The notes under the pieces: generated by a model
Databases searched by the model: none
Told to the model about the DNA's origin: nothing
The model's input: only the letters and a program-made list of their open reading frames with translations
Translations under genes and position numbers: made by a program
Shown: positions 45,513-61,869 of the stretch, one piece after another
Layout: every line of letters begins with the position of its first letter
How positions within the stretch are numbered: the stretch's first letter is position 1
Origin: a virus
Length of the DNA: 64,000 nucleotides
Reading direction: 5' to 3' (one strand)
IMG/VR virus record: IMGVR_UViG_3300034069_000021
Coordinates: 1-64,000 of that record

Positions 45513-45516
45513 GTCA

Positions 45517-45537
45517 CCCGAGTGAGTCGGGTAACAT
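45517..45537 (+). promoter_or_regulatory. Operator plus -10 for a leaderless ruvC-like gene
   Basis: CCCGAGTGAGTCGGG (45517-45531), TAACAT (45532-45537), then CAGGGC and the ATG at 45544. Confidence 0.55.
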
Positions 45538-45543
45538 CAGGGC

Positions 45544-46122
45544 ATGAGAATCCTCGGGGTCGATACCAGCCTCACCGCCACCGGCCTCGCGTTGATCGAC
45601 ATCGCCACCTGGCCCCCGAGTAACCCGCCGAGGCAGCCCGGCGATCCGGTCTCTTACAGCGCCCAGGTGGTCACTGTGGGCGCGCCGAAGCCCACCAAGG
45701 ACAAGACCAAGCAGGCGATGGCGCGGCGCGTGAGAACGCTGCTGAGCGACATCGAGGAGGTGTTCAAGGAGGACCGCCCCGAGCACGTCGGGATGGAGGC
45801 GCTGGCGTACGGGGCGCGCGGTGAGGGCGCATGGGTGCTGCCCTGGATCTTCGGTGAGGTGATCAGCCTGACCGTCGAGTACAGCGTCCCGCTGACCATC
45901 GTGGCCACCAAGGCCCGCGCCAAGTTCGCCACCGGCAACGGCAACGCCGACAAGCAGACCGTGCTGCTGGCGGTGAACAGGCTGGAGCCCGCCGCCGAGG
46001 TGACCAACGACAACGAGGCCGACGCGCTCAGCGTCGGGGCGGTGGTGTGCCAGAAGCTCGGGGTGCCGATCTGGCCGGTGACCGCCTACCGCACCGACGT
46101 CGTGAGCAAGCTCGGGGACTAG
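45544..46122 (+). CDS. RuvC-like Holliday junction resolvase
   Basis: Motifs MRILGVDTSLTATG, GMEALAYG, NEADALSVG. Opposite strand to the flanking terL and portal genes. Confidence 0.8.
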   Translation: MRILGVDTSLTATGLALIDIATWPPSNPPRQPGDPVSYSAQVVTVGAPKPTKDKTKQAMARRVRTLLSDIEEVFKEDRPEHVGMEALAYGARGEGAWVLPWIFGEVISLTVEYSVPLTIVATKARAKFATGNGNADKQTVLLAVNRLEPAAEVTNDNEADALSVGAVVCQKLGVPIWPVTAYRTDVVSKLGD

Positions 46123-47879
46123 GCCGAGCGACCGATCTTCCGCGTCATCCACGCGGGCGGGGCCTGGTTCTTCCGCGCCTTGGCCGGGCTGGCGATGGTC
46201 ATCTTCGACCCGGCCATCTCCATGATCTTGTCGTAGACGATCACGCCCGCCGCTACCCGGTCGGGCTGGTGCTGACCGGCCTGCCAGTCGGCGGCTTGCT
46301 CCTCGAATACTCGCAGGGCGAACTCCACCGTCCGGCACTGCTTCGTCTCAAACGCCTGGCTGAGCGCGCCCGACCGGGCCACCGCATCGGCCTTGCTCGG
46401 GCCACGCCACGGCACGATCTGGAACGGCGGCAGGTCGGGGATGGCGCGCTGCTCCACGGGCGTCAGCTGCTCGCCGCGCTTGAGTTTGGCCACCGCCTCC
46501 TCATGGAAGGCCCGGTACGCCTTGCGGACCACCTGGAGGTACGTCTTGGCCGAGGTGTAGCCCTCCACCGCGATCACCCGCGCGCCGATCTCCAGGGCCA
46601 GCGTGACGGCCACGGTGGACCACTGGTCCGAGGTGTACTGACCCGAGCGGTCGTGCGTCAGCGCCGCTCGCCCGTCCTGCATCAGCATCCCGCCGATGAT
46701 CCCGGCCTCGTCGCCCTCGCCCGAGTCGGCGGGGTCGACGCCGACCACCGAGGCCACCGGCCAGAGCGGCACACCCTCCAGCCGTGGCTCGAACCAGGCG
46801 CGCTGGAAGATGCCGCCCGCCGGGTTACGCGGGGAGCCCTGGTACAGCGCGTACCAGGTACGTTCGCCGACCTGCTTGCGCGTCATGGCGAAGTTCCGCT
46901 TCGCCTCGGGGGTGTCTCGGGCGCTGATCATGGGCGTGCCCGGCTCGCGCCCGAGCGCGTCGTCAATACCCTCCTCCGCGATGGCGGGGATGTTGATGTG
47001 CCGCCAGGTGCGTTCCTCCTGGTCCAGCAGCCGCTCGCCCTCGATGATCTTCCCGGCCAGATCCTCGGGGTGCCACCGGGTCTGGATCAGGATCACCGAC
47101 GCCGACGGGCTCAGGCGGGTCAGGGCCACGTTGGAGAACCAGTCATCGACCTGGACGCGGTGCGCCGCCGAGTCGGCCTCCATCATGTTCTTGAACGGGT
47201 CGTCAATGATCATCAGGTCAGCCTGGAAGCCGGTAATGGCCGAGCCGATGCCCGCCGCCACCACGCCGCCCGCGCCGCCGTCGATGGACCAGTTGCTGAC
47301 CTTGTTCGCGCCCTGGGCCAGGGACAGTCCGAGCTTGTCCTTCACGGGCAGGCCGGTCAGCGAGTCGACCACGCCCGCGCCGTGAGTGCCGATGATCCGG
47401 CGCATTTCGCGGGAGTGCTTCTCGGCCAGGGCGGCGGCATAGGTCGCCAGGATGATCGGGCGCGGGCGCAGCTGGAGCGCGCGGATCGGGGTCCACACCG
47501 CCGCCGTCGTGCTCTTGCCCTCCTGGGGCGGCATGGTGATCAGGACGTTCAGCTTCTTGGGTGAGCGCAGCACGCGCTCGATGGCCCAGCTGCACAGCTC
47601 GATGGCCGGGGTGATCACGAACCGGGGGTCGCACGCCTTGGCGATCTCGGCGGGGTGCCGGTACTTGGTCTTGACCTCGGCGCGGACCTCGGCGGCGCGC
47701 AGCCGCGCCAGCATGGCCATCCGCTGGGCGTCAGGCCAGTCCTTCGTCTCCTCGTAGATGTCCGAGGCCCGAGCCGAGTCGAACGCGCCGCTCGCGTCCC
47801 AGACGTCGGGCTCAGGCGTCGGCTCGGGGATCTCGACGCGGTGGTTCGGATCCTGGAAATACTCGGGCTGGTCAGCCAT
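46119..47879 (-). CDS. terL: Terminase large subunit
   Basis: 586 aa. ATPase motifs MPPQEGKST and LMIIDDP; C-terminal nuclease half. Confidence 0.9.
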   Translation of the reverse strand: MADQPEYFQDPNHRVEIPEPTPEPDVWDASGAFDSARASDIYEETKDWPDAQRMAMLARLRAAEVRAEVKTKYRHPAEIAKACDPRFVITPAIELCSWAIERVLRSPKKLNVLITMPPQEGKSTTAAVWTPIRALQLRPRPIILATYAAALAEKHSREMRRIIGTHGAGVVDSLTGLPVKDKLGLSLAQGANKVSNWSIDGGAGGVVAAGIGSAITGFQADLMIIDDPFKNMMEADSAAHRVQVDDWFSNVALTRLSPSASVILIQTRWHPEDLAGKIIEGERLLDQEERTWRHINIPAIAEEGIDDALGREPGTPMISARDTPEAKRNFAMTRKQVGERTWYALYQGSPRNPAGGIFQRAWFEPRLEGVPLWPVASVVGVDPADSGEGDEAGIIGGMLMQDGRAALTHDRSGQYTSDQWSTVAVTLALEIGARVIAVEGYTSAKTYLQVVRKAYRAFHEEAVAKLKRGEQLTPVEQRAIPDLPPFQIVPWRGPSKADAVARSGALSQAFETKQCRTVEFALRVFEEQAADWQAGQHQPDRVAAGVIVYDKIMEMAGSKMTIASPAKARKNQAPPAWMTRKIGRSA

Positions 47880-47888
47880 CCGGCCAGG

Positions 47889-48464
47889 CTACAGCCGCAG
47901 CTCGGGGACGCCGGTCTTGAGCACCGACAAGATCGGATCAGGGTGACCGCGCACCACGGACACCGCCTTGCCCTGGTAGGCCGGGCCGGTCAGCGTGTCG
48001 GCCAGGTTGCGGCTGGCGCTCAGTCGGCCCTTCACCCAGCTCGGGTTCTGCGTCTTGCCGATGGCCTTGGATCGGACCTTGCGCCAGTCCTCGGCGTCGT
48101 TGTGGTCGAGCAGGACCAGCGTCACCTCGTAGCCGCCCTCCAGCGCGGCGTCGATGAACCGGCGGTTGGCCAGGCGGGCACCCTCGGCCAGCAGCAGCGG
48201 GTACGGCTGGGAGCGGACCCAGGGCGCGGCCTTGTCGATGATGCTGGAGGGGAGCGCGTCGGTGCCCGAGAACAGCTCACGGCGCACGCCCAGCTCAGCG
48301 CCGACTACCTCGCCGGTCACGCGCTCGGTGAGCACGTCGTGCGCCACGGGGTACGCATCGTTCGGCGCGATCTTGTGACGGTCGAACGCCGCCGTCAGCT
48401 TGGACATGAGGGTGCTCTTGCCCGAACCGGGCTGGCCAACGAGGTAGATCAGGCGAGCGGTCAT
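47889..48464 (-). CDS. P-loop NTPase or kinase-like protein
   Basis: Walker A LVGQPGSGKST. Walker B-like TLVLLDHND. Confidence 0.7.
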   Translation of the reverse strand: MTARLIYLVGQPGSGKSTLMSKLTAAFDRHKIAPNDAYPVAHDVLTERVTGEVVGAELGVRRELFSGTDALPSSIIDKAAPWVRSQPYPLLLAEGARLANRRFIDAALEGGYEVTLVLLDHNDAEDWRKVRSKAIGKTQNPSWVKGRLSASRNLADTLTGPAYQGKAVSVVRGHPDPILSVLKTGVPELRL

Positions 48465-48470
48465 GGCCTG

Positions 48471-48491
48471 ATCATACCCGACTGACTCGGG
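48471..48491 (-). promoter_or_regulatory. Operator plus -10 for a leaderless P-loop gene
   Basis: Minus strand reads CCCGAGTCAGTCGGG (48491-48477), TATGAT (48476-48471), then CAGGCC and the ATG at 48464. Confidence 0.55.
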
Positions 48492-48499
48492 TGACTCGG

Positions 48500-49456
48500 T
48501 TACTGCCGGGGCGTAGAGCTGTTCCAGGGCCGGTCACCCTCGCCCGTGTTGCGCCAGCCGCTCATCGCCTGGCGGTTGACGCCGCGCCCCTTGGAGCCGG
48601 GGATCTCGGTGTCGCCGTTGGCAAGGCGCTTGGCCATCTCCGTCTCGCGCTCGGTGCGCCGCTGGCGTCCGTACGCGGCCTCCTCGGCGGCGGTGCGGCA
48701 GTTCTTCATCCCGCGCAGGGCGTAGTAGACCGCGCTGATCCGGTAGCCCTGCTTGGCCTTCACCCGAGTGATCGGCGTGACGCCGTGGACCAGGCGGTAG
48801 CCCTCGAAGTACGTCACCGTGGAGTCCGAGCAGGGCAGCGTCACGCCGTACTCGGGGATGTGCAGGTGCCCGCCTCGGGTGCCGCGTCGGACCACCGGCA
48901 TGGCCGACCACACCGGGAAGTTGAACCCGTCGCGGTGGTAGGGGAGCTGGGCGGTGTCGTTGACGACGCCGGACGTCCACAGCTTGGCCTCACCGAGCCG
49001 CCAGTCCGGCAGCACGTTGGCGTTAGCTAACTCCCGCTGACCGCGTTCTACCAGCTCGGGGTCGATGGCGCCGAGCCCGTCGGCAAACTGCTCGACGTAG
49101 CTCTCCAGCACGCGCTCGATCTCGGGCTGGTCACGCCCGAGCGTGCTGATCGTGCAGGCCTCCCGCCAGATCACCGGGCGGCGCGGGGCATAGCCGAACG
49201 TCCGTGACCGGCTCCGGTAGTTGTTGGCCCGCTGGACGGCGGCGCTGGTGTCGATCTGGAGCACGGCCCGGCGCAGCGGACCAGCGTCGGCCAGAGGCAG
49301 GTACCCGAGCACGGGCGCGCCGGTCTCGGCGTCGTGGATGACGGTGCCCGGCTTGATGTCCGACGGGGCGCGGTCGGGCACCGTGTCCCCGACCATGGTC
49401 GACGCCTCCTCAGGCGTGGCCAGGCGGGGCAACTCGATGCGCGTCAGCGTGGTCAC
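48500..49456 (-). CDS. 2OG-Fe(II) dioxygenase superfamily protein
   Basis: HxD (YHRDG), a distal His (LVHGVTP) and an RxS motif (YRISAVYY), with the spacing expected for a double-stranded beta-helix. Confidence 0.6.
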   Translation of the reverse strand: MTTLTRIELPRLATPEEASTMVGDTVPDRAPSDIKPGTVIHDAETGAPVLGYLPLADAGPLRRAVLQIDTSAAVQRANNYRSRSRTFGYAPRRPVIWREACTISTLGRDQPEIERVLESYVEQFADGLGAIDPELVERGQRELANANVLPDWRLGEAKLWTSGVVNDTAQLPYHRDGFNFPVWSAMPVVRRGTRGGHLHIPEYGVTLPCSDSTVTYFEGYRLVHGVTPITRVKAKQGYRISAVYYALRGMKNCRTAAEEAAYGRQRRTERETEMAKRLANGDTEIPGSKGRGVNRQAMSGWRNTGEGDRPWNSSTPRQ

Positions 49457-50262
49457 TCGGTGAATCCCTCGGGGTCGGCGGCGTCCAGGAACTCGTCGGC
49501 CTGGGCGCTCAGCTCAGCCGGGGTCGGCTCGATGCCCGGCGCGGTCTCGCCGCTCCACTCAGCCAGCAGTTCCAGCAGCGCCTCGCTGTTGGTCTTGAGA
49601 CCGCGCTCCGTGCGAAAGGCCTCCAGCTTCTCCTGAGACCAGACGAACGCCGGGATCGGCATGGTCAGCACGATCATCCGGTTGTTCGCGTTCTCCGCGT
49701 ACTCGTCGCGCCGCTGAGTCATGTCCTTGGCGTCGATCAGACCGTCCTCGCGCTTGCCCTTGGTGGGCTCGGTCTCGGGCTCAGGGTTGACCGGCGGCAG
49801 GTCGTCCTGTTCCTCCAGCAGCGCGGTCAGGTCTTCCACGTCGGCCTCGGTGAAGCCCAGGCCCTCGATGTCCGCGCCGAACCCGGTGACCAGCTCGGCC
49901 AGCTCGATCTCATCGAACCCGCCCAGCTGGCCGGTCTGGTTGTCCGCGACCACGATGCGCTCGGCCATGTCGTCATCGACGTCCACCCAGTGGACCAGGA
50001 TCTTCTGCCAGGCGGGGTCGTCGGGCTCGGCCTCGGCCAGCTCGCGGAACGCCATCAGGGTGTGGTTGCCCGCCAGGATCTCCAGCGGTCGGCCCGTGTG
50101 CGTACCGATGTTGCCGGTGATCGGCTTGAACTGGGTGTGGCGTCGGAGGCTGGCCATGATGGCCCCGACGTCGCCGCGCCTCGGGTTCCGGTGGAAGGTG
50201 TGGAGCTGAGCAGGGGCGATGGCCGTGGTCTTGCCGACGGCGGGAGCGGATGTCGAAGCCAT
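49453..50262 (-). CDS. ParB-like nuclease domain protein
   Basis: ATG 50262 chosen because the ORF-track N-terminus translates the palindrome. Motifs HRNPRRGD and ILAGNHTLMAFRE. Confidence 0.7.
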   Translation of the reverse strand: MASTSAPAVGKTTAIAPAQLHTFHRNPRRGDVGAIMASLRRHTQFKPITGNIGTHTGRPLEILAGNHTLMAFRELAEAEPDDPAWQKILVHWVDVDDDMAERIVVADNQTGQLGGFDEIELAELVTGFGADIEGLGFTEADVEDLTALLEEQDDLPPVNPEPETEPTKGKREDGLIDAKDMTQRRDEYAENANNRMIVLTMPIPAFVWSQEKLEAFRTERGLKTNSEALLELLAEWSGETAPGIEPTPAELSAQADEFLDAADPEGFTE

Positions 50263-50283
50263 GGGCGCAGGATACCAGGAGGG

Positions 50284-50312
50284 TTGACTTACCCGACTCA
50301 CTCGGGTAACTT
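50284..50312 (+). promoter_or_regulatory. Promoter-operator cassette at the major divergent junction
   Basis: TTGACT (50284-50289), TA, CCCGACTCACTCGGG (50292-50306), TAACTT (50307-50312). No leader hairpin. Confidence 0.65.
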
Positions 50313-50408
50313 GGTGCTCGGAGCCGGTGACGGGGGCGGTACCAGGGGTGGACGTTTATTCGCGGGTCTACCTGCAAAAACTAGTCAAAATTCGTCCTTG
50401 TGGTTCGC

Positions 50409-50437
50409 TTGACATACCCGACTGACTCGGGTAACTT
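50409..50437 (+). promoter_or_regulatory. Promoter-operator cassette
   Basis: TTGACA (50409-50414), palindrome at 50417-50431, TAACTT (50432-50437). Leader hairpin 50449-50465. SD AAGGAGAG. Confidence 0.75.
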
Positions 50438-50489
50438 AGTTGATGTGAGGCGGGGCCGACCCGCCGACAACAACCCAAGGAGAGACACC

Positions 50490-51098
50490 ATGGCCACCAT
50501 CACCTTCACCGCCCAGATCCCCGGCACCGAGAACAGCCCGGTCACCCGCACCTCAGGAACCATGCCCTACGTGGCCACGGTCGAGGGCGTCACCTGGCAC
50601 AAGACGTTCGCCGCCGCCTACGCCGCCGCCAAGGGACGCCAGCACGCCCCCGGTGCCAAGGTCTACCCGGTGGTCCCGACCGCCATCAACGGCAAGATCG
50701 ACGGCACCGAGTTCACGGAAGGCTGGGGTGACATCCCCGCCGAGGCGTTCACCGAGCTGGTCGCGGCCAAGCTGGCCCCGAAGGCCAAGAAGGCCAAGGC
50801 CACCGCCCAGATCGAACTGCCGACCGAGGTGGAGCCCGCCGCCGAGCCCGAGGCCGAGATCGTCACCGAGACCGAAGCCCCCGAGGCTGACGTCCAGGCC
50901 GAGGCTGAGACCGAGGGCGCGGTGCCCGAGCCCGCCCCGGTGGCCGACGACGCCGACGCCAAGAAGGCCGCTCGCCGCGCCCGCCGGGCCGAGCGTCGGC
51001 TGGCCAAGCGCGCCACCGAGTCCCCCGAGGACAAGGCCGCGCGTCTCCAGGCCCGCCGTGAGCGCCGCGCCGCCCGCAAGGCCGCTGCGGCTGAGTGA
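50490..51098 (+). CDS. Hypothetical protein with highly basic Lys/Arg/Ala-rich C-terminus
   Basis: Internal ATG 50490 downstream of the cassette and SD. Tail motif KAKKAKAT..KKAARRARRAERRLAKR. Confidence 0.7.
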   Translation: MATITFTAQIPGTENSPVTRTSGTMPYVATVEGVTWHKTFAAAYAAAKGRQHAPGAKVYPVVPTAINGKIDGTEFTEGWGDIPAEAFTELVAAKLAPKAKKAKATAQIELPTEVEPAAEPEAEIVTETEAPEADVQAEAETEGAVPEPAPVADDADAKKAARRARRAERRLAKRATESPEDKAARLQARRERRAARKAAAAE

Positions 51099-51103
51099 GC
51101 CCG

Positions 51104-51140
51104 AGCGCCCCGGCCAGGTGAATAGCCTGGTCGGGGCGCT
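51104..51140 (+). terminator. Terminator hairpin abutting the next promoter
   Basis: 15-bp arms AGCGCCCCGGCCAGG / CCTGGTCGGGGCGCT (one G-T pair). The 3' end touches the TTGACA at 51140. Confidence 0.6.
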
Positions 51141-51168
51141 TGACATACCCGAGTCAGTCGGGTAACTT
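51140..51168 (+). promoter_or_regulatory. Promoter-operator cassette
   Basis: TTGACA, TA, CCCGAGTCAGTCGGG (51148-51162), TAACTT (51163-51168). Leader hairpin 51180-51196. Confidence 0.75.
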
Positions 51169-51217
51169 GGTTCTTGTGAGGCGGGGCCGACCCGCCGATA
51201 CCGACAGGAGAGACACC

Positions 51218-51538
51218 ATGACCGTGACCAACGGCCTCCCCACCGCCTCGGCGGTCAGCCGCGCCATCCGCCGCGACTTCCAGATCATCAGCCAGCCGAT
51301 CCACAAAGGCGGGTACGTGGTCCGGCGCGGGAACGGGCGTCAGATCGCCGCCAACATCTGGGTCGCGGTCAGCGACCTCGACTCGGCCAACGTCCGCAAG
51401 GCAGGCCAGCTGGCCGAGATCATGCGCGCCGCTGGCTACGACATCCACCACGTCGATGGGTCGACCATCATCTACGTCCACTCGATCCCGAGCGCCGCCG
51501 ACGCCGCGCCCAAGATCGCCGCCTACCTGGAGAGCTGA
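51218..51538 (+). CDS. Hypothetical protein
   Basis: 106 aa. ATG preceded by GGAGAGA. Confidence 0.7.
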   Translation: MTVTNGLPTASAVSRAIRRDFQIISQPIHKGGYVVRRGNGRQIAANIWVAVSDLDSANVRKAGQLAEIMRAAGYDIHHVDGSTIIYVHSIPSAADAAPKIAAYLES

Positions 51539-51540
51539 CC

Positions 51541-51723
51541 ATGGACACCGAGACCGACCTGACGTTCGATGACTGCCTGACCTGGGCCGAGTGGTGGGAC
51601 GAGTTCCACGCGAACGCCTGCTGCCCGAACAGCTCGGTCGCCGCTGCCCGCCTGTGCGGGTGCGGCGGCTCGGGTGAGCTGCCCAGCGGCGTCAGCCGCC
51701 TCCTGATCGGAGACCCCGAGTGA
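51541..51723 (+). CDS. Small Cys-rich hypothetical protein
   Basis: 60-aa ORF, tightly packed against its neighbours. Confidence 0.6.
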   Translation: MDTETDLTFDDCLTWAEWWDEFHANACCPNSSVAAARLCGCGGSGELPSGVSRLLIGDPE

Positions 51724-51869
51724 AGGGCATCCCCGCCGACCCGGCCCAGGCCGAGGCCCGGCGGGAGCGCGCCCGCGCCGAGCTGGCCCGCTGGAAGCGC
51801 CCAATCGACAGCCTGGAGGCGTGGGACGCCTTCGAGCGCCTGACAGGAATTGCGGAGGGAACAGAGTGA
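51720..51869 (+). CDS. Small hypothetical protein (49 aa, below ORF-track cutoff)
   Basis: GTGA overlaps at both ends link the neighbouring genes. High GC3. Confidence 0.5.
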   Translation: MKGIPADPAQAEARRERARAELARWKRPIDSLEAWDAFERLTGIAEGTE

Positions 51870-52228
51870 AGTGGACCAGGCCCGAGCCGGGCGAGTACAC
51901 CGCCGGGCCGTACAAGATCACCAGGTGGATGAGCGCCAAGGGCTCGGGAACCCCGTGGTTCGTGGACGGGCCGGGCGTGCAGATCGGCTGGCACGCCACC
52001 AAGGACGACGCCCAGGCTGAGGCCGAGGACGCCGCCCTGATGCGGATTACCGAGGAGACCAAGTACAGCGTCGAGCCGGTGGTGGGCGATTGGGCTTACC
52101 TGGGCGAATACCTCCAGGTCACCGCCGTGTTCAACGCGGGGACCGGGCCGTCGACCTACTCGCTTCGCACGGCGCGCGGCAAGCGGAAGTGCCTGCGGCG
52201 CTACGAGTTCCCGCTGGTGATCCGGTGA
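51866..52228 (+). CDS. Hypothetical protein
   Basis: GTG 51866 (internal to ORF 51821-52228). Confidence 0.6.
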   Translation: MKWTRPEPGEYTAGPYKITRWMSAKGSGTPWFVDGPGVQIGWHATKDDAQAEAEDAALMRITEETKYSVEPVVGDWAYLGEYLQVTAVFNAGTGPSTYSLRTARGKRKCLRRYEFPLVIR

Positions 52229-52377
52229 TCGCCCTGGTGGTGCTGGCCCTGGTCGGATGCCTCCTGGTGGCCAGCGCGCCCGACCGCTCCGCGTGGAGCT
52301 ACATCGGGGCCAGCCTGGCCCTGGGCGGGTTCCTGGCCATCCCCGTGTTCATCGGGCTCGGCATCATTTCCGTCTAA
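52225..52377 (+). CDS. Small two-helix membrane protein (50 aa)
   Basis: GTGA overlap start. Sequence VIALVVLALVGCLLVA..ASLALGGFLAIPVFIGLGII. Confidence 0.55.
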   Translation: MIALVVLALVGCLLVASAPDRSAWSYIGASLALGGFLAIPVFIGLGIISV

Positions 52378-52395
52378 ATTCCCTGCTAGCAGCGC

Positions 52396-52424
52396 TTGAC
52401 ATACCCGACTGACTCGGGTAACTT
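52396..52424 (+). promoter_or_regulatory. Promoter-operator cassette
   Basis: TTGACA (52396-52401), palindrome 52404-52418, TAACTT (52419-52424). Leader hairpin 52436-52452. Confidence 0.75.
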
Positions 52425-52476
52425 AGTTCTTGTCAGGCGGGGCCGTCCCGCCGATACCGACCCAGAGGAGACCACC

Positions 52477-53514
52477 ATGGCCCACGAACTCGACACCACA
52501 AACGGCGTGACCAGCTTCGCCGACTCCGAGGCCCGCGCCGACGGAACCGTGAGCGCCTGGCACCGGCTCGGCCAGGCCGTCGGTCACACCATGACCGCCG
52601 ACGAGGCCCTGGACGCCGCCCACATGCGCGGCTGGGACGTCCGCAAGGAGGCCCTGGTGGCCCAGGTCGGTGACCTGATGCTCCCGGTGCCCGACCGGTT
52701 CGCGGTCGTCCGCACGAACCCCGTCACCGCCGCCCCTGAGGCGCTGGGCGTGGTCGGTGACCGGTGGACCCCGTTCCAGAACGAGGAGACCACCGAGCTG
52801 CTGAGCGAGATCACCGACGAGGGCGGCGCGCACATCGAGACCATCGGCGCGCTGCGCGGTGGCCGGGACACGTTCGTCACGATGAAGATGCCCGCCCACA
52901 TGGAGTTCCGTTCGCCGGTCACGGGTGAGCTGGACACCACGGATCTCTACATCTCGATCCTGAACAACCACTCGGGCGAGGCCAGCCTGCGGGCGCTGAT
53001 CAGCCCGGTGCGGATCGTGTGCGCGAACACCCAGCGCATGGCCGAGGGCTCGGCGCGGTCCATGGTGGCGCTGCGCCACACGGGCAGCCCGAAGGCCCGG
53101 CTGGCCGAGGTGCGCCAGCTGCTGGGCCTGACGTTCGCCTACCGGGACACGTTCGTTGAGCAGTGCGAGCGGCTGATCGCGCGGGAGATGTCCGACGCCG
53201 AGGTTCTGGAGAGCCTGGAGGGCGTCTGGGGCGTCGGCGGGGCCACCACCGAGAAGCAGGCCGAGGCCCGCAAGGCCAAGGCCCTGGAGGTCTTCGAGGT
53301 CTACGCCAGCGACGTCACCGTGGCGGCGTTCAAGGGCACCGCGTTCGGGGCCTACAACGCCGGGACGCGCTACCTGGACCACGTGGCCCCGGTCAACCTG
53401 AGCGCCGACGCCACCGACGAGGAGCGGGCCATCCGCCGCGCTCAGCGGACGCTGATGTCCGATAGCCTCGGTCAGCTCAAGGGCCAGCTGTTCTCGGCCC
53501 TGCTGCCCGCCTAG
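52477..53514 (+). CDS. DUF932-family protein
   Basis: 345 aa. Motif ALISPVRIVCANTQ is typical of DUF932 (phage/plasmid-like) proteins. Confidence 0.7.
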   Translation: MAHELDTTNGVTSFADSEARADGTVSAWHRLGQAVGHTMTADEALDAAHMRGWDVRKEALVAQVGDLMLPVPDRFAVVRTNPVTAAPEALGVVGDRWTPFQNEETTELLSEITDEGGAHIETIGALRGGRDTFVTMKMPAHMEFRSPVTGELDTTDLYISILNNHSGEASLRALISPVRIVCANTQRMAEGSARSMVALRHTGSPKARLAEVRQLLGLTFAYRDTFVEQCERLIAREMSDAEVLESLEGVWGVGGATTEKQAEARKAKALEVFEVYASDVTVAAFKGTAFGAYNAGTRYLDHVAPVNLSADATDEERAIRRAQRTLMSDSLGQLKGQLFSALLPA

Positions 53515-53525
53515 CGGGTAGACCG

Positions 53526-53553
53526 GCCCGCCTGGTGGGGATGCCAGGCGGGC
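53526..53553 (+). terminator. Terminator hairpin
   Basis: 10-bp stem GCCCGCCTGG / CCAGGCGGGC. Confidence 0.55.
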
Positions 53554-53657
53554 TCGGTGAGCGCCGGGAGGTAAAGGCCGATCTGGGCTCTGCGCGCAAC
53601 CTGGGTCGAGAAGCTGCCGCCCGGCGCTCTCCAAGCCAAAATTGCCGGTCATCCATG

Positions 53658-53686
53658 TTGACATACCCGACTAACTCGGGTAACTT
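53658..53686 (+). promoter_or_regulatory. Promoter-operator cassette (one central mismatch)
   Basis: TTGACA (53658-53663), CCCGACTAACTCGGG (53666-53680), TAACTT. Leader hairpin 53698-53714. Confidence 0.7.
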
Positions 53687-53729
53687 AGTTCTTGTGAGGC
53701 GGGGCCGTCCCGCCGACAGAGAGGCCAAA

Positions 53730-54023
53730 ATGACCACCACCATCGGACACATGACCAAGGGCGTCGAGCTTGACCTGTTCGCGGCCACCGACGCCAACGT
53801 GCTCGACGGCATGATCCGCGCTCAGGGCGCGCTCGGCCAGATCACCTGGACCAAGATCAGCGAGACCGTGGCCTTCGGTCAGTTCACCGAGATCGTGACC
53901 GATCACGACGACGCCACCGAGCGCCCCGTGACCCGCGAGGAGACCCGCCGGGTGGTCGTGCTCGACGTCGACAACGCTGACGTGAAGACCGCCGTGGAGG
54001 CGGCGTTCTGGGTCAACGTCTAA
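53730..54023 (+). CDS. Hypothetical protein
   Basis: 97 aa from the internal ATG downstream of the cassette. Confidence 0.7.
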   Translation: MTTTIGHMTKGVELDLFAATDANVLDGMIRAQGALGQITWTKISETVAFGQFTEIVTDHDDATERPVTREETRRVVVLDVDNADVKTAVEAAFWVNV

Positions 54024-54030
54024 CCAGACC

Positions 54031-54063
54031 GGCCCGCCGGGTTCAGCCCGAGCCCGGCGGGCC
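54031..54063 (+). terminator. Terminator or attenuator hairpin
   Basis: 11-bp stem GGCCCGCCGGG / CCCGGCGGGCC. Confidence 0.55.
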
Positions 54064-54113
54064 ACCTACCGCCACCAGATACCCCGCCAGCACCTACCCA
54101 GAGAGACCAGACC

Positions 54114-55049
54114 ATGAAGACCCTGCTCACCGCCGCCGCCTGCGCGGCCACTGTCGCCGCCCTGGTGACGCCCACCGCGCTCGCTGCGGCCAAGACCGAC
54201 GTCGTGTTCATCGGCGGCACCGGTACCGGCATGAAGCTCACCGAGGTGTTCGGAACGGGCGGGAGCCCGACCGGGCTGACCGATCCGTTCGTCACCGACC
54301 GCGACCAGCTGGAGGTGCCGATCTACGACGGCGCGCCCTGGGCGAACCCTCAGGCCAGCGTGCCGTTCGTGGCCCAGGCCGTGGCCAAGACCGACGACCC
54401 CACCGTGGTGATCGGCCTCAGCAAGGGCGCTCAGGTGACCCATGGCGTGGAGGCCCAGGACACGCGCACCGACACGCGCTACGTGGTGATCGGTGACCCC
54501 GACTCGGACCACGGCATCAGCCGCGCGTTCGGGCTCAGCCCGGCCCAGACCGTGAAGACCCACGACTGGGAGGAGATCGTGGCTGAGCGGGACGCTGTGG
54601 GCGATTTCCCCGACCGCCCGTGGAACCTGCTCGCGACGGCGGAATCGTTGGCCAGCTGGGCCGTGGTCCACCCGCAGTACGGCGCGGGCGGCGACGGCGA
54701 CCCGCTGACCCGGCTGGACGAGGCCGAGGTGACCGAGACCAAGAACCCCAACGGCACCACGTTCACCAAGCGCGTGATCCCGGTGCGGGAGCTGAGCCTG
54801 CTCAAGCCGATGCGCGACACCGAGCGCACGCTGACCGGCCAGGACCGGCTGACCGACGAGGTAGAACGCCACCTCAAGCCCATGGTCGACGCTGGCTGGA
54901 GCCGCAACGACGCGAAGCCCGCCAAGACCACCAAGACCGACGCGGACGACAAGCCCGCCAAGGAGAGCAAGACCACCACCGCCAAGGAGACCAAGGCCGA
55001 CCGGGCCGAGGCTCGCACCACCAAGAAGGAGAGCAGCACCGATGAGTGA
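54114..55049 (+). CDS. Secreted PE-PPE-like / alpha-beta serine hydrolase
   Basis: Signal peptide MKTLLTAAACAATVAALVTPTALAAA. Motifs VFIGGTGTG, GxSxG (GLSKG) and VIGDPDSDHGISRAF. Lys/Thr-rich tail. Confidence 0.6.
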   Translation: MKTLLTAAACAATVAALVTPTALAAAKTDVVFIGGTGTGMKLTEVFGTGGSPTGLTDPFVTDRDQLEVPIYDGAPWANPQASVPFVAQAVAKTDDPTVVIGLSKGAQVTHGVEAQDTRTDTRYVVIGDPDSDHGISRAFGLSPAQTVKTHDWEEIVAERDAVGDFPDRPWNLLATAESLASWAVVHPQYGAGGDGDPLTRLDEAEVTETKNPNGTTFTKRVIPVRELSLLKPMRDTERTLTGQDRLTDEVERHLKPMVDAGWSRNDAKPAKTTKTDADDKPAKESKTTTAKETKADRAEARTTKKESSTDE

Positions 55050-55707
55050 TTACGACGACGAGCGGGCACAGGCCAGCCTGGAGTCCGACGAGGCCGAGCT
55101 GGCCACCGCGCCCTCGGAGGGCGTGACCAGCGTGCCGCCCAGCGCCGCGTACCTGCGCCAGGAGGCCGCGCGCCTGCTGGAGCTGGCCGGTGAGCGTGAG
55201 CGCGCCGAGGCCCGCGCGCTGCTGCTGGCCCGCGAGGCCGCTCGGCCCAAGATGCCCGAGGTCGGTGAAGGCCCCGCCTACGTGATCTTCCGCCGGTACC
55301 AGTCGGGGCGGGAGTACGGCTACGCCGCCGTCGGCTGGCGCGAGGGCCGGTCGGTGCGCTGGGCCGTGACCGGCTCGGAGACCCGCCGGTTCAACTGGCC
55401 GGGCCTGCTGGAGTTCATCGGGGAGGCCAACTGGCCGACGCTGTGGACCGTCACCGCTGGCGAACGCCTCGGCCCCGAGCCCGGCGCGGAGCCGCCGACC
55501 GCTGAGGTGATGGGGCGGTACGGGCGCGTGGAGCGAACCGAGACCGTCGGCGCGGTGGACCACGACCCGTTCGCGGGGATGCTCATCGTCGGCCTGGGCG
55601 GCGGTGGCCGGGCGACCGGCCCGTTCGACCGGAGCCCGCACGCGCCTCAGGGCGGGTACGCCTCGGGCGGGCGGGTTCACCCCGAGTCCGAGCCGAACCG
55701 GTGGTGA
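55042..55707 (+). CDS. Hypothetical protein
   Basis: 221-aa ORF with an 8-nt overlap with the previous gene. Confidence 0.65.
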   Translation: MSDYDDERAQASLESDEAELATAPSEGVTSVPPSAAYLRQEAARLLELAGERERAEARALLLAREAARPKMPEVGEGPAYVIFRRYQSGREYGYAAVGWREGRSVRWAVTGSETRRFNWPGLLEFIGEANWPTLWTVTAGERLGPEPGAEPPTAEVMGRYGRVERTETVGAVDHDPFAGMLIVGLGGGGRATGPFDRSPHAPQGGYASGGRVHPESEPNRW

Positions 55708-55925
55708 GCCCGCGCGAGGAGGTCGGGCTGCCCAAGTACCCCGACGTCGAGGTAGAGCTGCTGGGCCAGGACGGGAACGGGTTCCTGATCGTGTCCAGGG
55801 TCCAGCGCGCTCTGCGCCAGGCGGGCGTGCCCGCCGACGAGGTGACCGCCTACGTCAACGAGGCCACCGACGGCGACTACGACAACCTGCTGGCCGTGAC
55901 CGGCCAGTGGATCACCATCCGCTGA
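55701..55925 (+). CDS. Hypothetical protein
   Basis: 74-aa ORF (alternative GTG at 55704). Confidence 0.6.
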   Translation: MVSPREEVGLPKYPDVEVELLGQDGNGFLIVSRVQRALRQAGVPADEVTAYVNEATDGDYDNLLAVTGQWITIR

Positions 55926-55931
55926 TTGACC

Positions 55932-55963
55932 GAGGGCGGGCCGGGGACACCTGGCCCGCCCTC
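55932..55963 (+). terminator. Terminator or attenuator hairpin
   Basis: 11-bp stem GAGGGCGGGCC / GGCCCGCCCTC. Confidence 0.55.
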
Positions 55964-55980
55964 ACTGATTGGAGACCACC

Positions 55981-56178
55981 ATGGACCCGAACGCCACACT
56001 GTCCGAGCTTCGCGCCCTGTGCGCTCGCGTGCAGGCCGAACAGCGCCTCAGCCAGGCCGACGTAGAGCGCGGCGCTGAGCTGTTCACGGCGCTCGATGAG
56101 TGGCTGTGCCGGGACGGCTTCTTGCCGACCGACTGGAGCTACCTGGACACCGACGGCGCGATCAGCCCGCCACGATGA
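55981..56178 (+). CDS. Hypothetical protein
   Basis: ATG after a GGAGACCACC SD. 65 aa. Confidence 0.6.
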   Translation: MDPNATLSELRALCARVQAEQRLSQADVERGAELFTALDEWLCRDGFLPTDWSYLDTDGAISPPR

Positions 56179-56381
56179 GCCGTGAGCTTCTGCTGCCGCT
56201 GGAGCTGACCCGACCGCCGCGCTGCCCCGGCTCGGGTGAGTGGCCCCACCGGAACTACAAGGGCCGGGCCGAGTGCCAGATATGCGGGAAGCGGTTCGCG
56301 CCCAAGCTGGACGGGCGCGTCCGTCGGCACCCCGCTCAGATCAAGTATTTGCCGGTCAGGGTTGTTGACATACCCGACTGA
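56175..56381 (+). CDS. Small zinc-ribbon-like protein
   Basis: ATGA overlap start. Motif CPGSG..CQICGK. Its stop TGA lies inside the next operator palindrome. Confidence 0.6.
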   Translation: MSRELLLPLELTRPPRCPGSGEWPHRNYKGRAECQICGKRFAPKLDGRVRRHPAQIKYLPVRVVDIPD

Positions 56382-56393
56382 CTCGGGTAACTT
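56365..56393 (+). promoter_or_regulatory. Promoter-operator cassette
   Basis: TTGACA (56365-56370), palindrome 56373-56387, TAACTT (56388-56393). Leader hairpin about 56407-56421. Confidence 0.7.
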
Positions 56394-56442
56394 GATTCAA
56401 GTCAGCGCGGGACCGCCCCGCCAGACAGAGAGGAGACCTCAC

Positions 56443-56664
56443 ATGGTCACCATCGAGATCACCACCACCAGCACCACCGAGTACGACGGTGATTTCGAGT
56501 GGATCATCACCGACCTCCTGAACGGTCAGTTCCGTGTGGAGGTCGCGCACCACGGAGTGTGGTTCGCCAAGGGCATCGCCCCGAGCTACACGCGGGCGCA
56601 GTACACCGCTGGCCTGTTCATCGGGCAGCACATGCGCGCCGAGGCCATGGCGGCGGCGCTATGA
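56443..56664 (+). CDS. Hypothetical protein
   Basis: 73 aa. AGGAGA SD. Confidence 0.65.
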   Translation: MVTIEITTTSTTEYDGDFEWIITDLLNGQFRVEVAHHGVWFAKGIAPSYTRAQYTAGLFIGQHMRAEAMAAAL

Positions 56665-56957
56665 CCGTCACGCCGCCTCAGCCCGGCTCGGGCAAGTCAC
56701 GCCGATGCAACGGCCACAAAGACACGCGCCTCCTGCTGGAGGCCGTGGAGGCGGCTGGCGGTGAGTGCGTCCCCCACGGGCGCACGCGCCCTGGCCACTG
56801 GAAGGTCTACCTCGACGGGAAGATGATCGGAGGAATCAGCGGCACCCCGTCAGACCACCGCACCCGCAAGAACGACATCGCCCGGCTCCGCAGGAACGGG
56901 CTCAACATCACCTCGAAGGGAACCTACGATGGGGCTGCTCCCCAAGATCGACCTTGA
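56661..56957 (+). CDS. Hypothetical protein (weak HicA-like pattern)
   Basis: ATGA overlap start. Segment LLEAVEAAG..GHWKVYLDG..ISGTPSD..IARLRRNG. Confidence 0.55.
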   Translation: MTVTPPQPGSGKSRRCNGHKDTRLLLEAVEAAGGECVPHGRTRPGHWKVYLDGKMIGGISGTPSDHRTRKNDIARLRRNGLNITSKGTYDGAAPQDRP

Positions 56958-57201
56958 CATCGCGCACACGGTGGGCGAGTTCCTGGGCCTGCTCAAGGAC
57001 ATGAACCAGAAGCTCGACACGTTGATCGGCCTCCAGCGCCAGGCGGTGGCCGAGCCCGTGTGCGGTGCGTGCGACCAGATCGGGCGGCTCCACTGCCCCG
57101 AGCATGGCCAGCCGGGGTTCATCGACCAGCGCGACACCCCGTGGCGAGGCCGGTCAGCGCCGCTGCCGTACCCCGACCTCACCGAGGGCGGCACGCGATG
57201 A
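56929..57201 (+). CDS. Hypothetical protein
   Basis: 90 aa. GAAGGGAA SD. 29-nt overlap with the previous gene. Confidence 0.55.
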   Translation: MGLLPKIDLDIAHTVGEFLGLLKDMNQKLDTLIGLQRQAVAEPVCGACDQIGRLHCPEHGQPGFIDQRDTPWRGRSAPLPYPDLTEGGTR

Positions 57202-58547: not shown

Positions 58548-58559
58548 CTCGGGTAACTT
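58531..58559 (+). promoter_or_regulatory. Promoter-operator cassette
   Basis: TTGACT (58531-58536), palindrome 58539-58553, TAACTT (58554-58559). Leader hairpin 58571-58586. Confidence 0.7.
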
Positions 58560-58606
58560 AGTTCCTGTGAGGCGGGGCCGACCGCCACTGACCGAGGGAG
58601 ACCACA

Positions 58607-61852: not shown

Positions 61853-61869
61853 GACCGCCAGGGTAGCGC

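What the first reader, a model, noticed from the sequence alone, without database searches (positions are those of the whole stretch)
47889..50262. ParB-like protein, 2OG-Fe(II) dioxygenase and P-loop NTPase trio directly upstream of terL: candidate DNA-modification or packaging-accessory module
The first three genes of the virion block are a ParB N-terminal-domain protein (HRNPRRGD, ILAGNHTL), a protein with a complete 2OG-Fe(II) dioxygenase signature (HRD ... H ... YRIS), and a small Walker A/B NTPase of kinase-like size. No recognisable small terminase sits next to terL. Established knowledge: TET/JBP-type 2OG dioxygenases hydroxylate DNA bases, and P-loop kinases phosphorylate 5-hydroxymethyl-pyrimidines in known phage thymidine hypermodification pathways. 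Inference: this trio could hydroxylate and then further process bases in phage DNA around packaging, which would give anti-restriction protection. Alternatively the ParB-like protein could substitute for TerS. No glycosyl- or amino-transferase is visible here, so any such pathway would be incomplete or novel.
Basis: inference. Interest (0 to 1): 0.7.

Follow-up and report, generated by a model that had tools for sequence, protein, structure and literature searches.

The report
ParB-activated thymine hydroxylase cassette beside terminase
The three genes in front of the large terminase of this Cluster B mycobacteriophage form a DNA-modification cassette of a recently characterised kind (a thymine hydroxylase, its ParB-like activator and a DNA-base kinase), so the finding is real but largely explained, apart from the unknown end product of this stripped-down version.

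Summary
Three co-directional minus-strand genes sit directly upstream of terL: a ParB-like gene (49453-50262), a TET/JBP-fold Fe(II)/2OG dioxygenase (48500-49456) and a PF18751 P-loop kinase (47889-48464). The window is about 98% identical to Mycobacterium phage Julie1, and these are its gp1-gp3.

The trio matches the "ParB-dependent T-dioxygenase" system described experimentally in 2026 (PMC13229309). In that system the ParB-like protein activates the dioxygenase to turn thymine in dsDNA into 5-hydroxymethyluracil. [quoted passage not shown]

- In 79 related viral loci, ParB lies just upstream of the dioxygenase in 52 of 53 testable cases.
- The kinase accompanies AADT in 33 of 33 loci.
- This genome type has no AADT, glycosyltransferase or C5-methyltransferase, so the cassette is minimal. 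The likely product is 5-hmdU, perhaps phosphorylated to 5-PmdU.
- The public labels "queuine tRNA-ribosyltransferase" and "terminase small subunit" are annotation artefacts.
- ParB is unlikely to be an obligatory TerS: B1 relatives with an orthologous TerL lack it, and B2/B3 relatives lack the kinase.

One point is unexplained: roughly 300 B1 phage records appear to keep the kinase without a TET/JBP homologue, checked in detail in one genome. Interest is modest. This is a new member of a known kind.

The parts
49453..50262 (-). ParB-like protein (269 aa from the ATG at 50262; equals Julie1 gp1). Predicted activator of the adjacent thymine dioxygenase. It has a ParB/Srx-fold N-terminal nucleotide-binding domain (about residues 12-126), a short helical segment (139-153), an acidic disordered linker (about 154-192) and a small C-terminal domain (about 193-237). 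No HTH DNA-binding domain is seen.
   Evidence: phrog_6392 E=7e-145. There is no Pfam hit, even at E<=10. AF2 gives pLDDT 82. Foldseek top hits are M. xanthus ParB 7bnr/7bnk, B. subtilis ParB 6sdk, C. crescentus ParB 7bm8, Noc, PadC and KorB, with E from 7e-6 to 1e-3. Invariant residues are N26, R28, G30, G65, N66, H67, T68, D107 and N108. It lies directly upstream of the dioxygenase in 52/53 related loci.
48500..49456 (-). TET/JBP-fold Fe(II)/2-oxoglutarate dioxygenase (318 aa; equals Julie1 gp2), a predicted DNA thymine C5-methyl hydroxylase (5mYOX). The metal triad is H174-x-D176...H224 and the 2OG-binding residue is R239. A C-terminal extension follows invariant C253, with a helix at about 250-279 and a conserved tail GWRxTGxGDRPWNS..PRQ.
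   Evidence: Pfam Tet_JBP at 23.4 bits, E=3.9e-5, below the gathering score of 34.9. All 40 aligned homologues hit Tet_JBP, best 3e-9. AF2 gives pLDDT 82.4 and pTM 0.74. Foldseek ranks 1-26 are all CcTet, TET2, NgTET1 or CMD1 (E 1e-9 to 2e-7), while AlkB/ABH2 appear only at about 1e-5. A weak profile hit to NgTet1 and TET2 sequences was also found.
48465..48499 (-). Intergenic gap between the dioxygenase and the kinase. It holds one copy of the genome-wide 19-bp palindrome (48475-48493), followed on the minus strand by TATGAT, 6 nt and the kinase ATG. This is a possible -10 element with a leaderless start for a separate kinase-terL transcription unit.
   Evidence: The same arrangement occurs in Julie1 and KayaCho, and a half-site plus TAACAT lies upstream of the B1 kinase. 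The function is inferred, not shown.
47889..48464 (-). P-loop kinase of Pfam family PF18751 (Ploopntkinase3), 191 aa; equals Julie1 gp3. Predicted 5-hydroxymethyluracil DNA kinase. Public records label it 'adenylate kinase' or 'terminase small subunit'.
   Evidence: PF18751 E=4e-103. phrog_800 E=7e-35, the same PHROG as validated M6 gp54, which scores 2e-39. hhalign of the family profile against M6 gp54 gives probability 83%, E=8.6e-6 over 121 columns. The kinase is present in 33/33 AADT-containing loci, and no M6-type kinase occurs in any locus.
46119..47879 (-). Large terminase subunit (586 aa), the first gene downstream of the trio. Included as context only.
   Evidence: Pfam Terminase_6N E=6.6e-9 and phrog_38 E=3.9e-95. 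Orthologues at 56-72% identity follow different modification cassettes in other Cluster B subclusters.

Best explanation
The trio is a post-replicative thymidine-modification cassette of the 'ParB-dependent T-dioxygenase' type.

- Step 1 (inferred from family membership and published biochemistry of homologues): the TET/JBP-fold enzyme uses Fe(II), 2-oxoglutarate and O2 to oxidise the C5-methyl of thymine in phage dsDNA to 5-hydroxymethyluracil.
- Step 2 (inferred by analogy with ParB176/5mYOX176): the ParB-like protein, which is translationally coupled to the enzyme, is its cognate activator on duplex DNA. It has a ParB CTPase-fold N-domain and a C-terminal domain but no HTH.
- Step 3 (inferred from gene-neighbourhood statistics and remote homology to M6 gp54): the PF18751 P-loop kinase phosphorylates the new hydroxyl to give 5-phosphomethyl-dU.

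In relatives this intermediate is consumed by an amino-acid:DNA transferase, or the hydroxyl is glycosylated instead. The Julie1 genome type, about 98% identical to the window, encodes neither enzyme: homology searches covered the window and all of Julie1, and the Pfam scan covered 60 mostly non-structural proteins. The pathway therefore stops at 5-hmdU or 5-PmdU.

The cassette occupies the slot immediately upstream of terL. In the sister Cluster B subclusters examined, that slot holds other ParB-led DNA-modification modules. Modification is therefore probably timed with late gene expression and packaging, and probably serves to protect virion DNA from host nucleases.

My confidence in the separate parts is about 0.8 for ParB plus dioxygenase making 5hmU and about 0.5 for the kinase acting on 5hmU in this phage.
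For: Fold and motifs of the dioxygenase:
- Invariant HxD...H...R residues.
- A confident AF2 model.
- The best 26 PDB matches are all TET-family DNA dioxygenases.
- 40/40 homologues hit Pfam Tet_JBP.

ParB-like protein:
- Its closest structures are MxParB, CcParB and BsParB, the same ones reported for 5mYOX-associated ParBs.
- Its architecture is NBD, short helical segment, disordered linker of about 40 aa, then CTD. This matches the description of ParB176.
- The dioxygenase carries the C-terminal extension after a conserved Cys that the paper says is exclusive to ParB-dependent enzymes.

Genomic context:
- ParB is adjacent in 52/53 related loci and overlaps the dioxygenase start in GTGA here.
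- No C5-MTase, ThyA-like hydroxymethylase, GT or AADT was found in the Julie1 genome type.

Published biochemistry:
- ParB-dependent 5mYOXs make 25-35% 5hmU only when their cognate ParB is present.
- Their neighbourhoods carry PF18751 kinases and PF18724 AADTs.

Kinase:
- It occurs in 33/33 AADT loci against 16/26 other loci (Fisher p=8e-5, not corrected for phylogeny).
- No M6-type HMUDK is present in any locus.
- It shares phrog_800 with validated M6 gp54, and hhalign gives 83% probability.
- AADT chemistry requires 5-PmdU.
- Cluster B siblings carry ParB-TET-AADT-kinase (Zemanar) and ParB-TET-TAGT-PIG-L-kinase (Indlovu, Acadian) in the same slot.
Against: - The window protein itself scores below Pfam's Tet_JBP gathering threshold (23.4 against 34.9 bits).
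- The kinase belongs to PF18751, not to PF18748, the family of the biochemically proven 5-hmdU DNA kinases. Pairwise similarity to M6 gp54 is confined to the P-loop.
- No transferase that would use 5-PmdU exists in this genome type.
- 376 Mycobacterium phage records carry the kinase but only 64 carry the dioxygenase, so about 310 records, apparently B1 phages, keep the kinase next to TerL without a TET/JBP homologue. In the one B1 genome inspected, Kikipoo, the kinase keeps every invariant residue, and no ParB or other source of 5hmU was found in the stretches examined. Its substrate there cannot be phage-made 5hmU.
- TAGT-type Cluster B phages also keep the kinase, although glycosylation needs no phosphorylation.
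- No chemical data on virion DNA of these phages was found.
Confidence: 0.7

Rival explanations
1. The P-loop protein is a packaging accessory of TerL, either a small-terminase-like or regulatory NTPase, rather than a DNA-base kinase. Only ParB and the dioxygenase would then form the modification module.
For: The kinase abuts terL in every Cluster B variant that has it. It is retained with all invariant residues in the B1 genome examined, which has no dioxygenase, no ParB in the stretches examined and no 5hmU source. It is also kept in TAGT-type phages that should not need it. A possible separate -10 element lies in front of the kinase gene. PHROGs and RefSeq label it 'terminase small subunit'.
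Against: The same PHROG matches M6 gp54, a proven 5-hmdU DNA kinase that RefSeq also mislabels TerS (PMC8989533). Orthologous TerLs of B2 and B3 phages (56-59% identity) have no such kinase. In 24 viral loci the kinase sits with AADT and no detectable TerL homologue, and two relatives with TAGT have a TerL homologue but no kinase. The protein is a single-domain P-loop kinase with no DNA-binding or oligomerisation domain typical of TerS.
Confidence: 0.15
2. The ParB-like protein is the functional small terminase or pac-site recognition factor, with or without a role in modification.
For: A ParB N-domain gene is gene 1, near terL, in the B2 and B3 representatives examined and in other actinophages. 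Terminases co-occur with 5mYOX genes in 19% of contigs. Aravind and co-workers proposed that ParB directs modification enzymes to DNA during packaging (as cited). No bona fide TerS is recognisable here.
Against: The B1 phage Kikipoo, with a 67% identical TerL, has no ParB homologue in the stretches examined. ParB follows the dioxygenase, not TerL: it is adjacent in 52/53 loci, most of them without a TerL homologue. Homologous ParBs activate their cognate dioxygenase in E. coli and in vitro with no packaging machinery present. The predicted structure has no HTH DNA-binding domain.
Confidence: 0.1
3. The dioxygenase acts on 5-methylcytosine (TET-like), on RNA or on a protein, not on thymine in DNA.
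For: The closest solved structures are 5mC dioxygenases. The published phage T-dioxygenases also oxidise 5mC in vitro.
Against: No C5-methyltransferase is encoded among the 60 mostly non-structural Julie1 proteins scanned. In the published survey, 94% of phage 5mYOX contigs lack a C5-MT and ParB-associated enzymes were shown to make 5hmU. hTET2 is also the top Foldseek hit for the proven T-dioxygenases. Neighbours in relatives are thymidine-hypermodification enzymes: AADT, and a TAGT predicted to act on 5hmU.
Confidence: 0.05

Closest known systems
ParB-dependent phage T-dioxygenases (5mYOX clade C1, e.g. 5mYOX176 with ParB176; O'Toole et al., PNAS 2026, PMC13229309)
   Same: A TET/JBP-fold enzyme with a C-terminal extension is encoded directly after a ParB-like gene that has an NBD and a CTD but no HTH. 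No neighbouring C5-MT is present. PF18751 P-loop kinases are found in the neighbourhood and terminases are often nearby. The closest ParB structures are MxParB and CcParB.
   Different: The published pairs come from metaviromes, and no mycobacteriophage is mentioned. Their neighbourhoods usually include AADT or GATase, whereas this cassette has only the kinase. Sequence placement relative to 5mYOX176 could not be tested. Activity and ParB dependence are untested here.
Thymidine hypermodification pathway: 5-HMUDK plus AADT (phages M6, ViI, PaMx11; Lee et al., PMC8989533)
   Same: A P-loop kinase would act on 5hmU in polymeric DNA to give 5-PmdU. The window kinase shares phrog_800 with M6 gp54. 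In relatives it is invariably paired with PF18724 AADT.
   Different: In M6 and ViI, 5hmU is incorporated during replication from a hydroxymethylated nucleotide pool. Here it would be made post-replicatively by a dioxygenase. The kinase belongs to a different Pfam family (PF18751 rather than PF18748). No helical partner like M6 gp55 and no AADT is present.
Base J synthesis in kinetoplastids (JBP1/2 thymidine hydroxylase plus glucosyltransferase)
   Same: A TET/JBP-family enzyme hydroxylates thymine in DNA post-replicatively (established knowledge). Cluster B siblings such as Indlovu and Acadian add a TET-associated glycosyltransferase, PF20691.
   Different: There is no J-binding domain and no glycosyltransferase in this genome type. 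A ParB activator and a kinase are present instead.
ParB-led dPreQ0 cassette of Cluster B2 phages (Rosebush type: ParB-like, DpdA, QueC, QueD, QueE, FolE, then TerL)
   Same: It occupies the same genomic slot, upstream of an orthologous TerL (56% identity), and has a homologous ParB N-domain gene (54% identity) as its first gene. Rosebush DNA carries dPreQ0 on 28% of its G residues.
   Different: The chemistry is entirely different: guanine is replaced by a 7-deazaguanine. There is no dioxygenase and no kinase. The 'queuine tRNA-ribosyltransferase' label on the dioxygenase may have spread from this positional analogue (my inference).
Phage TET 5mC dioxygenases paired with C5-methyltransferases (clades A/B; Burke et al. 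2021, PMC8256090)
   Same: They belong to the same superfamily and use the same logic of post-replicative hydroxylation followed by further decoration.
   Different: They need a cognate C5-MT and act on Gp5mC. No MTase is present here, and no ParB dependence was reported for them.

Membership tests
TET/JBP (5mYOX) dioxygenase superfamily, Pfam PF12851 | Double-stranded beta-helix fold with an HxD...H iron triad and a C-terminal Arg that binds 2-oxoglutarate | tested here: met
   H174, D176, H224 and R239 are invariant in 40 homologues. The AF2 model has pLDDT 82. Foldseek ranks 1-26 are all TET-family structures, E from 1e-9 to 2e-7.
TET/JBP (5mYOX) dioxygenase superfamily, Pfam PF12851 | Score at or above the Pfam gathering threshold | tested here: inconclusive
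   The window protein scores 23.4 bits against a cut-off of 34.9. All 40 homologues hit at E<0.01, best 3e-9, and many database relatives carry a precomputed PF12851 hit.
ParB-dependent T-dioxygenase subclass (O'Toole et al. 2026) | A cognate ParB-like gene immediately adjacent | tested here: met
   There is a GTGA start/stop overlap here. ParB lies upstream in 52/53 related loci that have enough flank.
ParB-dependent T-dioxygenase subclass (O'Toole et al. 2026) | A C-terminal extension beyond the last conserved Cys, absent from ParB-independent enzymes | tested here: met
   Invariant C253 is followed by 65 residues, including a helix at about 250-279 and a conserved tail. Equivalence of the Cys is by analogy, not by alignment to 5mYOX176.
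ParB-dependent T-dioxygenase subclass (O'Toole et al. 2026) | No neighbouring C5-cytosine methyltransferase | tested here: met
   The Pfam scan of 60 mostly non-structural Julie1 proteins found no DNA methyltransferase family, and none is annotated in the record.
ParB-dependent T-dioxygenase subclass (O'Toole et al. 2026) | Phylogenetic placement in clade C1, and ParB-dependent T-to-5hmU activity on dsDNA | not testable with these tools
   The reference sequences are not held. Activity needs an experiment.
5mYOX-associated ParB | A ParB/Srx-fold nucleotide-binding N-domain plus a C-terminal domain, with no HTH DNA-binding domain | tested here: met
   The AF2 model shows structured regions at 12-153 and about 193-237 joined by a disordered acidic linker. 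Foldseek aligns about 150 columns to MxParB, BsParB and CcParB. There is no Pfam HTH or ParBc hit.
5mYOX-associated ParB | Conservation of the CTP-binding and hydrolysis residues of chromosomal ParBs | tested here: inconclusive
   Invariant NPR (N26, R28), GNHT (G65-T68) and DN (D107, N108) motifs occupy the expected boxes. No residue-level structural superposition was available. In ParB176 these residues were dispensable anyway.
5-hmdU DNA kinase (5-HMUDK; Pfam PF18748, e.g. M6 gp54) | Membership of PF18748 | tested here: not met
   The window kinase hits PF18751 (343 bits), and PF18748 is not among its 25 listed best matches (one further family was not shown). M6 gp54 hits PF18748 and not PF18751.
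5-hmdU DNA kinase (5-HMUDK; Pfam PF18748, e.g. M6 gp54) | Homology to validated kinases across the kinase domain, and genomic coupling to AADT | tested here: inconclusive
   Both match phrog_800 over profile positions of about 31-211. hhalign gives probability 83%. At family level the kinase is present in 33/33 AADT loci, but this genome type has no AADT.
Terminase small subunit | A small DNA-binding (HTH or similar) oligomeric protein that is required by, and conserved with, its TerL | tested here: not met
   The kinase is a single P-loop kinase domain. Orthologous TerLs in B2 and B3 phages lack it, and the B1 phage examined lacks ParB. The label traces to phrog_800, which also covers a proven DNA kinase.
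Queuine tRNA-ribosyltransferase / DpdA (TGT fold) | A TIM-barrel TGT domain | tested here: not met
   There is no TGT Pfam or NCBIfam hit. The predicted fold is a jelly-roll whose best matches are TET enzymes.

The most novel reading that the evidence does not exclude
The Julie1 genome type encodes the hydroxylase, its activator and the kinase, and no transferase was found by homology searches of the window and the whole Julie1 genome or by a Pfam scan of 60 mostly non-structural proteins. The terminal modification in virion DNA could therefore be 5-phosphomethyl-2'-deoxyuridine, a phosphorylated nucleobase so far known only as a pathway intermediate. It would be installed around packaging. 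The intact kinase of the B1 phage examined, which has no hydroxylase, would then point to a second, unknown substrate for this kinase family.
Probability: 0.2. Interest if true: 0.65.

Novelty: new member of a known kind. Interest (0 to 1): 0.35.

Why it matters
Identifying the trio corrects two misleading public annotations, 'queuine tRNA-ribosyltransferase' and 'terminase small subunit', that recur across the Cluster B records seen here.

It also places a large, culturable and genetically tractable phage group (the SEA-PHAGES Cluster B phages on M. smegmatis) inside the newly defined ParB-dependent thymine-dioxygenase class. That class has so far been studied only with metavirome genes expressed in E. 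coli.

The cluster offers a natural series in one genomic slot: hydroxylase plus kinase only; plus AADT; plus glycosyltransferase and deacetylase; kinase only; and unrelated dPreQ0 or IbrA/B cassettes. This series could show what each step contributes to DNA chemistry, packaging and evasion of mycobacterial defences, which is relevant to therapeutic mycobacteriophages.

If the minimal cassette stops at 5-PmdU, that would be a new natural DNA base.

Tried and rejected
- Pfam and NCBIfam gave nothing for the ParB-like protein, even at E<=10 or with its domains split. Sequence searches of the PDB with the single protein or the profile also gave nothing useful. Only the PHROG profile and the predicted structure identify it.
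- A PDB sequence search for the kinase gave only P-loop-level hits. A profile search for the dioxygenase gave marginal NgTet1 and TET2 hits and a spurious helicase-loader hit.
- My first single-linkage clustering of the genes lying between dioxygenase and kinase merged the TET-associated glycosyltransferases with one AADT clade. I corrected this with Pfam and reference-based phmmer.
- An AADT-HMM hit in the window at 48537-48989(-) is an artefact. It lies out of frame inside the dioxygenase gene, because stop-to-stop translations of high-GC loci dragged that frame into the HMM.
- The 'queuine tRNA-ribosyltransferase' and 'terminase small subunit' readings were considered and rejected (see the membership tests).
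- The simple sigma-70 and terminator scan found nothing in 47700-50700. The promoter-like repeats were found by repeat and pattern search instead.
- Iyer et al. 2009 and 2013 could not be read. What I say about them rests on citations in other papers and on memory.
- No supplementary sequences of 5mYOX176 or ParB176 were available.
- Literature searches found no chemical analysis of DNA from TET-encoding mycobacteriophages.

Full report
**What is there**

The window has about 70% G+C. Across 46000-50262 it is 98.6% identical, in reverse complement, to positions 1-4263 of Mycobacterium phage Julie1. Julie1 is a Cluster B phage (Bclasvirinae); close relatives include 39HC, 40BC, KayaCho and Hosp, and Cooper, Nigel and Adawi are more distant. 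Whole-window alignment shows that the window runs across the conventional genome end at 50262/50263.

On the minus strand the gene order is:
- ParB-like, 49453-50262
- a 2OG dioxygenase, 48500-49456
- a P-loop NTPase, 47889-48464
- TerL, 46119-47879

RuvC follows on the opposite strand, then a DUF1360 membrane protein and the portal. The genes are tightly packed: a GTGA overlap, a 35-nt gap and a 9-nt gap.

**The dioxygenase**

- Pfam gives only a sub-threshold Tet_JBP hit for the window protein (23.4 bits against 34.9). All 40 aligned homologues hit Tet_JBP (best 3e-9), and many database relatives carry a precomputed PF12851 hit.
- H174, D176, H224 and R239 are invariant.
- An AlphaFold2 model built from the alignment is confident (pLDDT 82.4, pTM 0.74).
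- Its 26 best PDB matches are all TET-family DNA dioxygenases: CcTet, human TET2, NgTET1 and CMD1, with E from 1e-9 to 2e-7. AlkB/ABH2 and small-molecule hydroxylases appear only at about 1e-5.

The PHROG and RefSeq name 'queuine tRNA-ribosyltransferase' is wrong for this fold.

**The ParB-like protein**

Pfam and NCBIfam do not recognise it. PHROG profiles do (E=7e-145).

The AF2 model (pLDDT 82) shows four parts:
- a structured N-terminal domain, residues 12-126
- a helix at 139-153
- a disordered acidic linker
- a small C-terminal domain, about 193-237

Foldseek places the N-domain closest to M. xanthus, B. subtilis and C. crescentus ParB, then Noc, PadC and KorB. No HTH domain is predicted.

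**What the literature says**

O'Toole et al. (PNAS 2026, PMC13229309; preprint 10.1101/2025.08.14.668559) define exactly this pairing.
- A subclass of phage TET/JBP enzymes (5mYOX clade C1) oxidises thymine to 5hmU on dsDNA only when co-expressed with a cognate ParB-like protein.
- That ParB-like protein has the NBD and CTD but no DNA-binding domain. Its closest structures are MxParB and CcParB.
- The enzymes carry a C-terminal extension found only in the ParB-dependent subclass.
- Their neighbourhoods contain P-loop kinases, AADTs and GATases. Terminases co-occur in 19% of contigs.
- The preprint's methods name PF18751 as the P-loop kinase family. This is the family of the window kinase (E=4e-103).

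The paper does not mention mycobacteriophages.

Lee et al. (PMC8989533) showed that 5-hmdU DNA kinases make 5-PmdU, that AADTs replace the phosphate with an amino acid, and that phosphorylation alone already blocked NcoI.

Other papers cite Iyer et al. 2013 for the occurrence of ParB homologues in DNA-hypermodification gene clusters, for the idea that ParB directs modification enzymes to DNA during packaging, and for a predicted GlcNAc-5hmU in Mycobacteriophage Acadian. I could not read that paper itself.

**Comparative genomics done here**

Seventy-nine IMG/VR loci encode relatives of the dioxygenase at 40-98% identity.
- ParB lies directly upstream in 52 of the 53 loci with at least 900 nt of upstream sequence.
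- Among the loci with at least 4.5 kb downstream, all 33 that encode an AADT (PF18724) also encode a homologue of the window kinase.
- None of the loci encodes an M6-type kinase.
- Loci with a TET-associated glycosyltransferase (PF20691) have the kinase in 5 of 11 cases.
- Loci with neither have it in 11 of 15 cases.
- The AADT association gives Fisher p=8e-5. This is uncorrected for relatedness.

This is the main argument that PF18751 kinases supply the 5hmU-phosphorylating step. Two results support it: a shared PHROG with M6 gp54 and an hhalign probability of 83%. Against strict membership, M6 gp54 belongs to PF18748 and the window kinase does not.

**The cassette is minimal here**

Searches were run against the six-frame translations of the window and of the whole Julie1 genome, using HMMs and phmmer for AADT (two clades), TAGT, PIG-L deacetylase, and FAD-like and PLP-like partners. 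They found nothing real. A Pfam scan of 60 mostly non-structural Julie1 proteins found no methyltransferase, glycosyltransferase, thymidylate-synthase-like enzyme or AADT.

Thymine is therefore the only plausible substrate, and nothing encoded here would consume 5-PmdU. The same minimal layout recurs in Cooper, Nigel, Adawi, ChrisnMich and KayaCho, and in a few unrelated contigs.

**The slot upstream of terL**

Orthologous TerLs (56-72% identity) are preceded by different gene sets in different Cluster B lineages:
- ParB-TET-kinase (this phage)
- ParB-TET-AADT-kinase (Zemanar, JAMaL)
- ParB-TET-TAGT-PIG-L-kinase (Indlovu, Acadian, Baee)
- kinase alone (B1, e.g. Kikipoo)
- ParB-DpdA-QueC-QueD-QueE-FolE (B2), a type whose DNA carries dPreQ0
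- ParB-gp2-gp3-IbrA-IbrB (B3)

Neither ParB nor the kinase is therefore obligatory for this terminase lineage, which argues against either being its dedicated small subunit. The slot behaves as a swappable cassette position, in most of the subclusters examined led by a ParB-like gene, for DNA modification.

**Caveat**

Kinase homologues occur in 416 phage records, 376 of them Mycobacterium phages. Dioxygenase homologues occur in only 100 records, 64 of them Mycobacterium phages. The excess appears to be B1 phages, of which I inspected one. In Kikipoo the kinase keeps every invariant residue, and no ParB, dioxygenase or other source of 5hmU is detectable in the stretches examined. This is unexplained. 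It keeps my confidence that the kinase acts on 5hmU in Cluster B at about one half.

**Verdict**

The finding is real, and the DNA-modification reading is supported. However, it is an instance of a system that was predicted computationally a decade ago and whose central step was demonstrated in 2026. The residual novelty is threefold: the transferase-less version, the unknown end product, and the orphan kinases of B1 phages. All three can be tested directly with phages already in culture collections.

Noticed in passing
window 4584, 11930, 34096, 45515, 48475, 50290, 50415, 51146, 52402, 53664, 56371, 58537, 63190 (19-bp sites): The palindrome TACCCGA-N5-TCGGGTA occurs at 13 sites, against 0 expected by chance. 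Ten sites are full sigma-70-like promoters on the plus strand (TTGACA/T, then the palindrome as spacer, then TAACTT). Most of these are followed by a GC-rich hairpin (GGCGGGGCCGNCCCGCC), a GGAG motif and an ATG. This looks like one regulator controlling a set of near-identical promoters.
   Followed up: partly
window 48465-48499 and 45515-45546: Two degenerate copies of the palindrome lack a -35 element. Each is followed by a -10-like hexamer (TATGAT or TAACAT), 6 nt and the ATG of the kinase gene and the RuvC gene respectively. This suggests leaderless transcripts. It also suggests that kinase-terL may be a transcription unit separate from ParB and the dioxygenase.
   Followed up: partly
window 50262/50263: The window is the reverse complement of a Julie1-like genome and reads straight through the conventional genome end. 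Positions 1-50262 equal Julie1 50338-1, and 50263-64000 equal Julie1 71058-57115. The source is therefore a circularly permuted or circularly assembled record.
   Followed up: yes
L083 1-567 (Mycobacterium phage Kikipoo) and about 310 further Mycobacterium phage records: B1-type phages keep an intact PF18751 kinase as gene 1, directly before TerL. Kikipoo has no ParB, TET/JBP, hydroxymethylase, AADT or glycosyltransferase in the stretches examined (1-9000 and 38000-68839). The kinase's substrate there is unknown.
   Followed up: partly
L087 1-6040 (B2 phage Tinciduntsolum) and L086 1-5236 (B3 phage Phlyer): The same slot upstream of an orthologous TerL holds ParB-DpdA-QueC-QueD-QueE-FolE in B2 and ParB-gp2-gp3-IbrA(PAPS reductase)-IbrB(ParB-like) in B3. 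A homologous ParB N-domain thus fronts three chemically unrelated DNA-modification cassettes.
   Followed up: partly
window 48500-48580 (C-terminal tail of the dioxygenase); P0126 in alignment A2: A conserved terminal motif, GWRxTGxGDRPWNSxxPRQ, ends the dioxygenase in many homologues. It also appears at the C-terminus of one ParB homologue (P0126). It may be a short docking motif or the remnant of a gene fusion.
   Followed up: no
phrog_6059, phrog_800; RefSeq records NC_023600, NC_007809 and others: Two functional labels are wrong for these families. 'Queuine tRNA-ribosyltransferase' is applied to TET/JBP-fold dioxygenases, including those of cyanophages MED4-184 and MED4-117. 'Terminase small subunit' is applied to P-loop kinases, including the experimentally validated M6 gp54.
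   Followed up: yes
window 49453-49690 (ParB C-terminal domain, residues about 193-237): The conserved C-terminal domain reads as an extended segment (RMIVLTMPI) followed by two helices. This resembles a ribbon-helix-helix dimerisation and DNA-binding unit. There is no Pfam support, so it is only an impression from the model.
   Followed up: partly
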